From: Saccostrea echinata
Lineage: Eukaryota
NCBI RefSeq assembly: GCF_033153115.1
Contig: NW_026889778.1
Coordinates: 13,144,001-13,208,000 of the forward strand
Length of the DNA stretch: 64,000 bases
Direction of reading: 5' to 3'
Shown in pieces: positions 33,871-49,005 of this stretch (position 1 is the stretch's first letter; each line of letters starts with the position of its first letter). A program made the position numbers and the translations under genes. The notes below the pieces were generated by a model. The model made no database searches, was not told the origin of the DNA, and saw only the letters and a program-made list of their open reading frames with translations.

Positions 33871-36800
33871 TCACCTCCTTTTAAGCTGGTTCTGTATTCT
33901 GTGGGACAACTCTAGGAGATCATCATCTACCTGCATTAGGTTCCTCTTATAGCTCTCATGTCTCTTTGTCAGAACATCCTGTGTTACCAAATGTACCAGA
34001 GTTAAAACACAGAATATATTAAAATCATTTTGTGAAAGATTTTTAGCCAATGGCTTAAGTAAGATACTCCATATTTATAAAAGTGATTGTATAATAAGAA
34101 GAGTATACCAGTTAATGTTTTATAGAGAATCATTTGCTGAGAGTTTTTAATCCATAAGGATGTTAAGTAAATGGATTCATGATTTCTAAATGTGCATTAT
34201 CATAAGAAAATTATCTTGGTTGAAGGACTATTCTCAAAAGAAACAACCATGGCTTTTACCCCTCTATTCACTTTCCATCCACTTTCAGATGGCTGGTATC
34301 CAGGAGTAGAAGTGACTACAGGTTTTGTCTTGGGATGGGAGTCTACAAAAGATATTTTTTAGGTAATACTTTATTTTCCATGTTTTTTCTACTAATAAGT
34401 CATCAAATTTTATACTTTATACAACATATTGTAATATATGACAACATATTGTAGTATATGACATATTGAAGTATAAATATAAACATACACGTTCTAAAGT
34501 TGCTGAAGACAGATGAGGCAGGTGAATCTCGACGGAATTTTCTCTTGATCATGATTTTGGTGATGGACACAGAAGGAGAGGAGTCTCTGCTCTCTTCAGA
34601 CTGAAAAAAATCACAAAAATGGCACTTATTATACCAAGTACAAGATGAGTACATGCCATTGATTATAATAATCATCCAACTGCAGCTGTTCATCAATCTG
34701 AAGAAAAGTATAATGTACCTCTCTGAAAATGGCGAAGACCAACTATGGTATCAATTCTGTTTATTTCATGTGAGGTTACATAGAAACCATTATTTATTTT
34801 TTTAATATATAAATTGTGATCTTAGCAGTCAACTCACCACTTCTTTGTCATTTTCCACCAGTTTTTCTCTTTTATTAATTCTGGAGATGGGATTTCCATG
34901 TACAGTTTTAAGGAAGTTTGAATTCTCCTCAGAAAATTGGAAAACATCAGTACCTTTGCCAAATTTCTTAGATGGGGTTCTGACATTTGGCCTTACAGTT
35001 CCATAGTTATAAGCAGGTTGCCTTGGAACATGACAGTCAGCTGATGGAACAAAATTCTTTGACAAACTAGTGTGACTTTCATGGTCTTGTGTATTATACC
35101 TGGGTTTCTTGGCATATGACGGAACAATGTCACGCTGAGATTCATTTGAAGAGCAAGTTAATTGTTGACTATCAAAAAAGTTCTGAGAGGCATATGCAGG
35201 AACACTGCTGACATGGCCATTTTCTGAACTGTTCTCTGAATTCTGTGAAAATCCTGCAATTCTCTGAGATCTTCTTTTGGGCACAATGTTTCTGAACTTG
35301 TCGTTTTTCCTCTCTGCTCTTCCTTGAGTCATTTGTGCTCCATTTACTGCCTCGTAGTCTTCCTGGGATTCCTTCCCAGCTCTGGACTGGCCTCTCCCCT
35401 GAGGTTGTGGTAGAACTGTAGCAACAGGAGAAGGGTTTGGCCTCTGGAAGAAAGTTTTGCAATGACTCTGGTTTGCATTGGTGTCAGGGGACATAAAATC
35501 TTGTTGGGTAGATTTCTGCTTTACATCAGACGTTAATACATTACTATTTCCCCTGGATGGATTTTCATAAAACTGTAGTTGTTGAGGATCCATCTTCCTG
35601 ATCTCATCATTCTCTTTCTGATGTTTAACAAAACCTACTGCCTCTCTTTCTGTTTGTATTGGAACTGCAGATCTACATTTCCTATCATTATATGACTGTG
35701 TATAATCTTTGTGCTTTATGGTGAAGGAGTCGAGAGATTCCTGACTGGACTGGTTTCTATGTGCTTTCTGTAGTTCAGCTTTCAGGAATGCTTTCAACTC
35801 TTCTTGCTGCTCTTTCATTGTATCATGAAGGAAATCTTTTTGGATGTTGGCCACACTGCTTGAGGTATTACAGATGGTTTTGGTTGATCGGCTCACTTCA
35901 CTCTCTATTTGTTTGGTAATGTCTTCGGTTTGCTCATCACTACTCTTTGTTAACAATCCTTGAAAGAATTCTAGAGCCTCCATTTTCTGGATTTCCAGTT
36001 CTCTTCTTATACATTTTATTTCTTCTGCAAAACTGCAACTAAAAAAAATAACTTTTCTTTCATCTCATTCAAACACCAACTTAACTCCTAAAGGTTTCTT
36101 CATAATCAGGTATCATTTAGTACTGAAGTACTTCAATCTTTTCATTAATTGTACATGTTGTATATCCAGTCTGTTTAATATCTTGAAAAAGTTTTTGCAC
36201 CTACAGTCACATTCATTTATTTCAACATAATGATCTTCACTTACAATGACTTCATTAGTTTTATTCATTTGACATTTATTGTATACCTGTTGTTTTTCCC
36301 CATTTTCTTTGGCATGTTATCCAGCCTCTGTTGCAGTTCGCTATGGTTCTGGTTCCCGACATTAAGTTGCTTCTCTTGCCCCTCTAGTATCCTCTGCTGG
36401 TTCTCTGTGATGGTCTGGTTGCTGTCTATCAGAGTCAGTAGCTGTTTGTCCATGTGTTCTCTGTTCTTGTGAATGACATCGGTCACTTTCTCCATCGACT
36501 GCTGACACCCTGCTTTTTGATGTTGCTCCAACTGCTTCTGGAGGTCAGCTATCCTGGCTTGTTTCTAATCAAAAAAAAATTTAGATGATAAAATGTTCCT
36601 TTTTTTTTCTTTTTTGATGCACTAAGATACATATCTACATGTATTTGTCAATGATATTAAATACTCATTTCTGTATTTTAGGATATATTTCTGTGTATTC
36701 AAAATTCTGGCAAAAATACAGGTCATGAATTGGTTTTGTCCAAAAATCAAGTTCTATCAGTGTTCATGCAATCATATTTCAGCTGTATAGTCATGAATTC

Positions 36801-37894
36801 TATATATTGTCTGTCAAGTGTGTTGAAAAAATCTTAATGTGAATCCTGCTATTAAAATACGGGTAAGTGCAACCATAAGCAACAGTCTCAATTAAATTTT
36901 TCCAACTCTTTCTGACTATTCATTCTATTAGGGGAAAAAAGCCTGCACAGTCATAGCCAATCCCCAACAAAAAGATGTTATTAAGACAGTATTTCATATA
37001 TTTTTTGCATTTAGTGAAAAACTGAATTTGACATTACAGTTAATATTTTCATGTTCACTTGACATTTTGCTGTACATGTTTTGCATTTAACACCTTTGAA
37101 ACCCCTCACCCATCCTAGCTCCCCCCAAAAAGACAAATGTACCTCATCTATGATTCCTTTCATTTCACCAATCTGGTGTCTAGCATCTTTCTGGTCTTGA
37201 AAAGTCAGAAGAATATTTTCAAATTGCTCTTGCAGATCTGTTTGAAAAAAAAAAAATAATACGTGAAAATGAGGATTTAAATGAAACAAGAGGCCTATGG
37301 GCCACAGCGCTATGAGTCAATATGGCCCTGTTGTTCTTCATCAGCAGATTTCTTCTCCTGTATCATATGTAAAGCTTTGATCACCTGTCATGATTTGAAC
37401 AAACTTGAATCTACACTACCTGAGGATGATTCCATATCAGTATAACCAATTGTGGCTCTGTTGTTCTTGAGAAGAAGAGTTTTAAAGATTTTTCCTATAT
37501 ATTCTTATGTAAACTTTGATCCCCCATTGTAGCCCCACCCTACACCCGGGTGTCATGATTTGAACAAACTTGAATCTACACTATGTAATGAAGGTTTCAC
37601 ATAAGTTTCAACTTTTCTGGCCCAATGGTTCTTGAGAAGATTTTTAAATGACGACACCAAATTTTCACCAATTCTTAATTATCTCCTCTTTGCAGAGGGT
37701 GTTGCCCTTTATTTGAACAAACTTGAACCCCCTTTACCCAACTTCATTTGAACAAACTTGAACCCCCTTTACCCAAGGATGCTTTGTGGCAAGTTTGGTT
37801 GAAATTGGCCCGGTGGTTCTGGAGAAGAAGTCGAAAATATTAAAAGTTTACAGATGGACGGACAGACAGCTAGAAGACGGACTACAGACAAAAT

Positions 37895-48500: not shown

Positions 48501-49005
48501 CAAAACTGGAAAAAATGTACCTCAAATCTATGTGAAGAAACCCCCGTCCTCTTTTGAAGGGGTAACAACATCATACAGATATGCACACGGTAGTGAGACG
48601 GCCGACCCAAACAAAAAAATGATCAACTGTATGAACAATGAGGCCCTTAAACTTAGTTTGTTAAATAGGAAAAATCGTGCCATGTCTGCAAGAGGTACAG
48701 TTCGTGAAACCGTGGCCTCCTGCATGAACTGGTACAACCCAGCAAGAGATCGACCGAAAACCGCGTTTCAAAATGAATCCATGTCGGCAGCAACTCAGAC
48801 GACAATGTTACAACCCCACCCTCCCTCTGAACCAGCCCCTCACAGGGTAGAAACAGCCCCACCGGCAGCACCAGAAAGGCAGGAAACAATGGCACCGTCT
48901 AGAGAGGCCACCATGGTTCTACCAGAGCCTGTTAACCGACAACCTCAACCGACTATTGCATGGGCACCACCACAGCCAGCCGCTGTAGAAGTGGCGTGTG
49001 CGTAA
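42587..49005 (+). CDS. C3orf84: HDNR-domain protein, C3orf84/CIMIP7 (ciliary microtubule inner protein 7)-like, 4 exons, ~290 aa
   Basis: Exons 42587-42634, 43792-43905, 47566-47643, 48373-49005 (873 nt, all phase 0). VVGSWFPTGYYGHFRS..EYRQVAKPQPP..HVFSNHDNRESF..QGLGRKR..VASCMNW matches recalled human C3orf84 LVGSWHNNGFYGHYRS..AAKPQPP..HFFSKHDNRTSF..QGIGRRK..VSECLNW. Confidence 0.85.
48044..48218. mobile_element. Degenerate pogo/Tc1-mariner-type MITE
   Basis: Left cagtcaaaccttgttatctggaa versus reverse-complemented right caggtgaacaaagttatctcgaa; TA at the right flank. Confidence 0.5.

What the first reader, a model, noticed from the sequence alone, without database searches (positions are those of the whole stretch)
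33871..49005. Candidate molluscan IHO1 identified by conserved head-to-head pairing with C3orf84
Seen: a large uncharacterised coiled-coil gene (-) and a clear C3orf84 ortholog (+) have start codons 754 bp apart. Established (recalled): human IHO1/CCDC36 and C3orf84 are adjacent and divergently oriented at 3p21.31, and IHO1/Mer2/Rec15/PRD3 proteins evolve too fast for easy BLAST detection. Inference: this is the meiotic DSB-axis factor IHO1, and a meiosis/sperm-axoneme gene pair has kept a shared germline promoter since the bilaterian ancestor. Caveat: the C-terminus (MQVDDDLLELSHRIQNQLKRR) lacks the terminal acidic FDSSDD-type motif I recall for vertebrate IHO1.
Basis: partly seen in the sequence, partly recalled or inferred. 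Interest (0 to 1): 0.7.

Follow-up and report, generated by a model that had tools for sequence, protein, structure and literature searches.

The report
Oyster IHO1 beside its ciliary partner
An unnamed oyster gene that starts back-to-back with the cilia gene C3orf84, a pairing also seen in other molluscs, is likely the invertebrate version of IHO1, the scaffold that lets germ cells cut their DNA to start meiotic recombination.

Summary
In this Saccostrea echinata window an 11-exon, 783-aa coiled-coil gene (minus strand) and a C3orf84/CIMIP7 gene (plus strand) have start codons 754 bp apart, and spliced contigs leave at most 85 bp between their 5' ends. The coiled-coil protein belongs to an unnamed family found in molluscs, a brachiopod, an annelid, echinoderms and hemichordates. 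The two genes share a scaffold in 6 of 6 other comparable molluscs (consecutive locus tags in 3) and are head-to-head in a clam-like contig. IHO1 identity is likely (about 0.9) but no call closes it. Pfam IHO1 hits only 2 of 14 N-terminal segments (best E 0.0011), not the oyster one, and no vertebrate protein was reached. Architecture fits, and REC114, MEI4 and HORMAD1 exons are in the genome. The sharpest match, six intron phases and 49- and 88-nt exons equal to human IHO1, rests on recalled human exon sizes. The family lacks the terminal FDSSDDD patch but has an internal acidic serine patch. A shared germline promoter since the bilaterian ancestor is untested outside molluscs. Verdict: new member of a known family.

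The parts
33871..41833 (-). Coding span of the IHO1-like gene (783 aa, XP_061187488.1): exons 41833-41766, 41393-41294, 41024-40849, 40431-40383, 39417-39330, 37237-37143, 36564-36287, 36032-34838, 34600-34489, 34342-34260, 33978-33871
   Evidence: exact match to P0001, all introns GT-AG; joints of coding exons 1-5
42209..42354 (-). 5' untranslated first exon of the IHO1-like gene (donor position inferred); an in-frame stop lies upstream, so 41833 is the first in-frame ATG
41766..41833 (-). First coding exon with the conserved N-terminal motif (F-x-N-x-V-S-x-R-[DE]-L-F), candidate REC114-binding peptide (inferred)
   Evidence: 13 of 18 proteins
40849..41393 (-). Exons 2-3: disordered region rich in SQ/TQ pairs, then the basic start of the coiled coil
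35760..40900 (-). Approximate span coding the predicted long helix (residues 98-376); the part shared with deuterostomes ends near residue 250
34571..34849 (-). Internal acidic serine patch ending in D-S-S-P-S (residues 680-693, across intron 8), candidate stand-in for the HORMAD1-binding patch (inferred)
33871..33978 (-). Last exon: basic K-R motif and C-terminal helix (residues 767-782); no terminal acidic patch
42355..42439 (.). Gap of at most 85 bp between the two transcripts' 5' ends, in a G+C-richer stretch; an ETS-type CCGGAAGTG at 42349-42357 and ATTGG at 42400 (motif names recalled); candidate bidirectional promoter
42440..49005 (+). C3orf84/CIMIP7-type gene (HDNR family), 290 aa: coding exons 42587-42634, 43792-43905, 47566-47643, 48373-49005

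Best explanation
The minus-strand gene, which lies head-to-head with C3orf84/CIMIP7, is likely the oyster ortholog of IHO1 (Mer2/Rec15/PRD3 family) and would act as the scaffold that gathers the meiotic DNA-break machinery on chromosome axes. Shown: the gene structure, a conserved family in five phyla, a long central helix between disordered arms (predicted), the linkage to C3orf84 in molluscs, and REC114, MEI4 and HORMAD1 exons in the genome. Inferred from mouse and yeast work: four copies would form a parallel coiled coil; the conserved N-terminal peptide would bind the REC114 PH domain and so REC114-MEI4; the basic patch at the start of the coil would bind DNA; the SQ/TQ cluster would take ATM/ATR feedback; and axis anchoring to HORMAD1 would use an internal acidic serine patch about 95 residues from the end in place of the mammalian terminal FDSSDDD. 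The two genes likely share one short bidirectional promoter in molluscs.
For: Family: 29 proteins at E up to 0.001; the 16 looked up by name come from bivalves, gastropods, Lingula, Owenia, three echinoderms and two hemichordates. A tree of 18 N-terminal regions broadly follows the species tree (gastropods 96/93, Ambulacraria 99/98; bivalves unresolved) and oysters sit on a long branch (1.41), which explains their missing Pfam hit. Pfam IHO1 matches 2 of 14 N-terminal segments, best E 0.0011, second-best E among the 25 families shown. Helix 98-376 in an otherwise disordered chain against mouse helix 114-245 (PMC10425845). Basic residues are fixed at the helix start, where a KKRR DNA-binding patch lies in mouse (PMC10393190). 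SQ/TQ pairs in the first 100 residues: 117 seen, 49 +/- 5.8 expected, maximum 73 in 5000 shuffles (species not independent). Linkage: same scaffold in 6 of 6 comparable molluscs, consecutive tags in Lottia, Sinanodonta and Haliotis rubra; head-to-head ATGs 440 bp apart in L009. Partners present. Intron phases 2,0,2,0,1,0 and exons of 49 and 88 nt equal the human IHO1 pattern as I recall it (56, 175, 164, 49, 88, 104 nt; from no call). Exons 5+6 span 61 aa in oysters and 64 aa in 12 of 16 other rows, and 64 aa equals 88+104 nt.
Against: Pfam IHO1 misses 3 of 3 oyster proteins, 18 of 18 whole relatives and 12 of 14 N-terminal segments, the oyster one included; 112 families matched some segment at E up to 10 and an unrelated one scored better (E 0.00011). 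No vertebrate protein came up among the named hits or, and the Atlas gave no IHO1 lead. A genome search with the IHO1 model gave 4 weak hits, none at this locus. None of 19 proteins ends in an FDSSDDD-like patch. The helix (about 280 aa) is twice the mouse one. The motif patterns were written after seeing the alignment. Human exon sizes, adjacency and orientation are recalled, not fetched.
Confidence: 0.8

Rival explanations
1. It is the IHO1 ortholog by descent but works differently: it reaches the axis without HORMAD1 or has taken on extra somatic or post-break roles, as Sordaria Mer2 has.
For: No terminal acidic patch in 19 of 19 proteins; Sordaria Mer2 lacks the patch and has extra roles (10.1101/2023.11.27.568863). 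The coil is extended to residue 376 and the family has extra conserved motifs such as SP[VI]A-x-[VI]-x-P in 17 of 18.
Against: HORMAD1 exons are present in oyster. An internal acidic serine patch is conserved (16 of 18 by pattern), and Arabidopsis PRD3 uses its IDSDEED patch at residues 397-404 for ASY1 binding.
Confidence: 0.12
2. It is an unrelated invertebrate coiled-coil family (for example a centriolar or ciliary scaffold co-regulated with CIMIP7) that happens to sit where IHO1 sits in vertebrates.
For: No significant link to vertebrate IHO1 in any call (10, 13, 26, 30, 37). Coiled coils hit many Pfam families weakly. Databases name members ninein-like, kinectin-like, interaptin-like or lava-lamp-like. 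The neighbour is a predicted microtubule inner protein.
Against: The one family named in advance is among the best-scoring Pfam matches. The genome search shows no better IHO1 candidate (insensitive) although REC114, MEI4 and HORMAD1 are present. The SQ/TQ cluster suits a DNA-break protein. The match to recalled human exon sizes would be very unlikely by chance.
Confidence: 0.08

Closest known systems
Mouse and human IHO1 (CCDC36), Pfam PF15771
   Same: Short conserved N-terminal motif, long central helix starting near residue 100-115 with a basic patch at its start, long disordered tail; weak profile match in relatives; neighbour C3orf84 (human: same interval; adjacency recalled); intron phases and two exon sizes (human values recalled).
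   Different: 783 aa against 574 in mouse; helix extends to residue 376; no terminal FDSSDDD patch; five exons after the sixth intron where the human gene has one (recalled); oyster sequence not detected by the Pfam model.
Mer2/Rec15/Asy2/PRD3/PAIR1 family (Tesse et al. 2017, PMC5695089)
   Same: SSM1 - coiled coil - SSM2 layout with poor sequence conservation; an S-S-P motif like the kinase site near the yeast Mer2 N-terminus (recalled); the published tree already includes a Nematostella member.
   Different: No mollusc, annelid, brachiopod, echinoderm or hemichordate member appears in the passages and supplement text I could search; the SSM alignments are figures I could not see, so motif equivalence is inferred.
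C3orf84/CIMIP7 (HDNR family PF15115, with TEX36)
   Same: HDNR domain; close relatives are named CIMIP7-like or C3orf84-like; the human protein is predicted to carry Mn repeats (PMC10973386).
   Different: Longer proline-rich tail. A second HDNR locus on another oyster contig may be TEX36; neither matched a solved structure, so the split rests on database names.

Membership tests
IHO1/Mer2 | Sequence or profile homology to IHO1 (PF15771) | tested here: inconclusive
   0 of 3 oyster proteins, 0 of 18 whole relatives, 2 of 14 N-terminal segments (best E 0.0011); no vertebrate hit
IHO1/Mer2 | Central long helix flanked by disordered regions | tested here: met
   Helix 98-376; pLDDT under 50 for residues 1-94 and most of 377-766; hydrophobic periodicity 3.6
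IHO1/Mer2 | Parallel homotetramer | not tested
IHO1/Mer2 | Conserved N-terminal motif (SSM1) that binds the REC114 PH domain | tested here: inconclusive
   A conserved N-terminal motif with an aromatic or hydrophobic residue near position 2 is in 13 of 18 proteins; equivalence to SSM1 and binding untested; REC114 exon present
IHO1/Mer2 | C-terminal SSM2 with acidic patch that binds HORMAD1 | tested here: inconclusive
   Terminal patch absent in 19 of 19; internal acidic serine patch in 16 of 18 by pattern; the patch is described as almost universal, and absent in Sordaria
IHO1/Mer2 | Orthologous position next to C3orf84 | tested here: inconclusive
   Met in molluscs; the human side is confirmed only to a 0.7-Mb interval; other phyla untested
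IHO1/Mer2 | Shared intron positions with vertebrate IHO1 | not testable with these tools
   Oyster side computed; human sizes recalled; no paper found gave them
IHO1/Mer2 | Meiotic expression, axis foci, need for DNA breaks | not testable with these tools
   Contigs show splicing only; tissue unknown
C3orf84/CIMIP7 (HDNR) | HDNR domain and closest named relatives | tested here: met
   PF15115 E 1e-17 in the 95% identical S. cucullata protein; RefSeq names
Bidirectional promoter pair | Divergent 5' ends under 1 kb apart | tested here: met
   At most 85 bp in oyster; ATGs 440 bp apart in L009; co-regulation untested

The most novel reading that the evidence does not exclude
Spiralian and ambulacrarian IHO1 proteins keep an older design than the mammalian one: they anchor to the chromosome axis through an internal kinase-primed acidic serine patch plus a basic C-terminal helix, carry a conserved ATM/ATR SQ/TQ cluster, and have stayed on one bidirectional promoter with the ciliary gene C3orf84 since the bilaterian ancestor. 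C3orf84 would then be a synteny handle for finding IHO1 in any animal where homology searches fail.
Probability: 0.3. Interest if true: 0.62.

Novelty: new member of a known kind. Interest (0 to 1): 0.42.

Why it matters
IHO1/Mer2 proteins are essential for meiotic DNA breaks and are hard to find by sequence. This names a likely ortholog set in five invertebrate phyla that databases call uncharacterized, ninein-like, kinectin-like or similar, and fills the gap between the published Nematostella and vertebrate members. It gives a marker of early meiosis and a candidate sterility target for oyster breeding. The different C-terminus makes a testable question of how axis anchoring evolved. It is expected rather than surprising: the family was already known from fungi, plants, a cnidarian and vertebrates.

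Tried and rejected
Pfam scans of single window exons gave only coiled-coil noise for the minus gene. ESM Atlas: no lead for the oyster or the crinoid N-terminus. PDB sequence searches with the family profiles gave only generic coiled coils and nothing for the C3orf84 profile. The word-based search with the N-terminal profile returned 5 proteins, all molluscan family members (it missed most of its own seeds, so the blank is weak). The own-genome search with the crinoid protein was swamped by its repeat; exon 3 finds only itself. No relatives' genomes are held. Expression: no RNA holder listed on record, tissue unknown, and contig depth was not used to rank the genes. Of 8 metagenome loci with C3orf84, 3 look like spliced transcripts and 4 genomic ones do not reach far enough upstream; only L009 was informative. 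A second in-frame ATG at 42769 was considered as the plus start and rejected: contigs splice from the exon ending at 42634. An upstream extension of the minus protein was rejected because of an in-frame stop. Short words shared between the oyster and L009 promoters (9 and 11 bases) were not taken as evidence. No long terminal repeats were found around the transposon in the neighbouring gene. Earlier scan notes: none by place or sequence; one note on another genome with an unsupported IHO1 idea did not bear on this. Literature searches for human IHO1 exon sizes found none; Stanzione 2016 is not held.
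Full report
Source and gene models. The large minus-strand exon found its own RefSeq protein, XP_061187488.1 of Saccostrea echinata, 783 aa, plus S. cucullata and Magallana gigas orthologs. An 11-exon model from 41833 to 33871 reproduces it exactly, with GT-AG at 10 of 10 introns; coding exons are 68, 100, 176, 49, 88, 95, 278, 1195, 112, 83 and 108 nt. The plus gene runs 42587-49005 in four exons, 290 aa, 275 of 290 identical to the S. cucullata protein, which has Pfam HDNR at E 1.1e-17. 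Its relatives are named CIMIP7-like, C3orf84-like or CC084-like in Crassostrea virginica, Mytilus and Mya. The ATGs are 754 bp apart. Contigs from four public runs (two studies, a few percent divergent, RNA status a guess) join coding exons 1-5 of the minus gene in all four runs and exons 1-2 of the plus gene in two. In one run the 5' ends reach 42354 and 42440, at most 85 bp apart.

The family. A profile of the three oyster proteins found 29 proteins at E up to 0.001 among 1.84 billion. I looked up 16 of them by name: Ylistrum, Mytilus, Solemya, Mya, Sinanodonta, Haliotis, Gigantopelta, Littorina, Lottia, Lingula, Owenia, Antedon, Anneissia, Acanthaster, Saccoglossus and Ptychodera; the other rows were the query, fragments and one Lingula-like fusion. 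A tree of 18 N-terminal regions groups gastropods and groups echinoderms with hemichordates, leaves bivalves unresolved, and puts oysters on a long branch. This reads as one ortholog group. Conserved elements (patterns written after seeing the alignment): an N-terminal motif (13 of 18), a basic K-A-K-E-R-D-E-R-D-L block at the helix start (17 of 18), SP[VI]A-x-[VI]-x-P near residue 486 (17 of 18), an acidic serine patch with S-S-P or S-S-Q/E (16 of 18), and a basic K-R-K-L-type motif before a short last helix (11 of 18). SQ/TQ pairs in the first 100 residues number 117 against 49 +/- 5.8 in shuffles. AlphaFold predicts disorder to residue 97, helix 98-376, disorder, and a helix at 767-782 (mean pLDDT 54).

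Linkage. Both genes had named records in six other molluscs, and in 6 of 6 they lie on a scaffold of the same length. Tags are consecutive in Lottia (173558/173559), Sinanodonta (016068/016069) and Haliotis rubra (LOC124276843/842). They are near but not consecutive in S. cucullata (334-kb scaffold) and Ylistrum (491-kb scaffold), and only on the same 64-Mb chromosome in Mya. Identifiers do not show orientation. Contig L009 does: a minus-strand ATG at 478 opens MFSNQISSRELL, the family's N-terminal motif, and ends at a phase-2 donor as in oyster, and the C3orf84 ATG is at 918 (the profile score of this short exon alone is weak, E 0.28). It was 1 informative locus of 8. No non-mollusc pair could be checked. 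For human, one paper lists C3orf84 and CCDC36 in chr3:49.19-49.89 Mb, as testis-restricted and testis-biased (PMC8016853); adjacency, divergent orientation and a gap of several kb are recalled.

Is it IHO1? Direct tests are weak. PF15771 misses the oyster proteins and 18 whole relatives. On N-terminal segments it matches 2 of 14, best E 0.0011; the output does not say which two, except that the oyster one is not among them, and 112 families matched some segment. In the oyster genome it finds 4 hits at E 0.22-2.6, none over the cut-off and none here, so no rival locus but no support. No vertebrate protein was reached. Indirect evidence is stronger. Mouse IHO1 has a helix at 114-245 in a disordered chain, tetramerises, and binds REC114 with its first 23 residues (PMC10425845); its DNA-binding KKRR patch is at the start of the coil (PMC10393190). 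The invertebrate family has matching elements in matching places. The genome has exons of REC114, MEI4 and HORMAD1, so an IHO1 is expected. Finally, the first six introns have phases 2, 0, 2, 0, 1, 0 and exons 4 and 5 are 49 and 88 nt. As I recall them, from no call, human IHO1 coding exons are 56, 175, 164, 49, 88 and 104 nt, giving the same phases. The oyster's exon 6 is 95 nt, 9 short; oysters have 61 residues over exons 5+6 where 12 of 16 other rows have 64, which is 88+104 nt. If the recall is right, orthology is nearly certain. I could not verify it. Overall odds of orthology about 0.9.

The missing motif. Mouse IHO1 binds HORMAD1 through a terminal FDSSDDD patch; acidic clusters are almost universal near SSM2, Arabidopsis PRD3 uses IDSDEED at 397-404, and Sordaria lacks the patch (10.1101/2023.11.27.568863). 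None of 19 family proteins ends that way. The best stand-in is the internal patch at oyster residues 680-693, whose S-S-P would suit CDK-primed DDK phosphorylation (recalled rule). This is inference.

Mechanism. Likely a tetrameric coiled-coil scaffold on unsynapsed axes that recruits REC114-MEI4 and so SPO11, under ATM/ATR feedback through the SQ/TQ cluster; every binding step is carried over from mouse and yeast. C3orf84 is predicted to be an Mn-repeat microtubule inner protein (PMC10973386). A shared promoter is likely in molluscs from geometry; shared germline control is untested, and a ciliary gene in a bivalve may well be active in gill.

Novelty. Tesse et al. defined the family across fungi, plants and animals, with Nematostella in their tree (PMC5695089). 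No paper held all of IHO1, Mer2, orthologs and Crassostrea, all of IHO1, oyster, triploid, meiosis and gonad, or all four terms. None of the listed papers mentions IHO1, and none listed joins IHO1 with a bidirectional promoter; these lists show only 20-40 of up to 1,431 papers. The 6 papers naming both human genes are association studies. Verdict: new member of a known kind, with a possibly variant C-terminus; interest 0.42.

What I saw of each paper. PMC5695089: main-text passages and one supplementary legend; supplement file 1 could not be searched and may list more invertebrates. 10.1101/2023.11.27.568863: passages; its supplements are closed, and those of the journal version PMC10997794 gave only peer-review text, so Table S2 and Fig. 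S1C may bear on the C-terminal patch. PMC10425845: passages and section 10. PMC10393190: passages; supplement not searchable. PMC10973386, PMC8033029: passages. PMC8016853: one passage and supplement rows. PMC13493937, PMC11840024, PMC12876976: supplement searches only. PMC9882977: term search, no hit. All others: search listings only.

Noticed in passing
window 2-331 (-): Single-frame forkhead gene at the window edge; best solved-structure match is FoxH1 (E 7e-16).
   Followed up: partly
window about 13200-30516 (+): G-patch gene with KOW-like stretch and an RS-rich tail, likely GPKOW (name recalled; weak G-patch_2 hit).
   Followed up: partly
window 14230-22074 (+): Inside that gene's intron, on the same strand: an intron-split Mutator-like transposase (PF20700) followed by a DEDDh exonuclease with a PML C-terminal domain. 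This pairing recalls KolobokP elements (recalled); no long terminal repeats were found.
   Followed up: partly
window 53633-62720 (+): MITF/TFE-family gene start (PF15951). Human MITF lies on 3p, and TFE3 and GPKOW lie together at Xp11.23 (recalled), which would fit one ancestral linkage group with 3p21.
   Followed up: no
window 42400-42445 and L009 782-812: Both promoters show ATTGG, then TAGCTACGG 10-14 bases later, then a GTAAACA-type forkhead site near the C3orf84 start; suggestive of ciliary (FOXJ1-type) control but not beyond chance as tested.
   Followed up: partly
G000:C8:4106310-4106531 (L027): Second HDNR-family locus, probably TEX36; no PDB match.
   Followed up: partly
G000:C1: HORMAD1 (5.58 Mb), MEI4 (7.96 Mb) and REC114 (32.35 Mb) exons all lie on one contig.
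   Followed up: no
protein P0074: A record that joins the Lingula-type IHO1-like N-terminus to a Macro domain (E 6.5e-14); probably a gene-model fusion.
   Followed up: no
window 22355-22798: Five degenerate copies of an 80-85 nt tandem unit just after the transposon's exonuclease.
   Followed up: no
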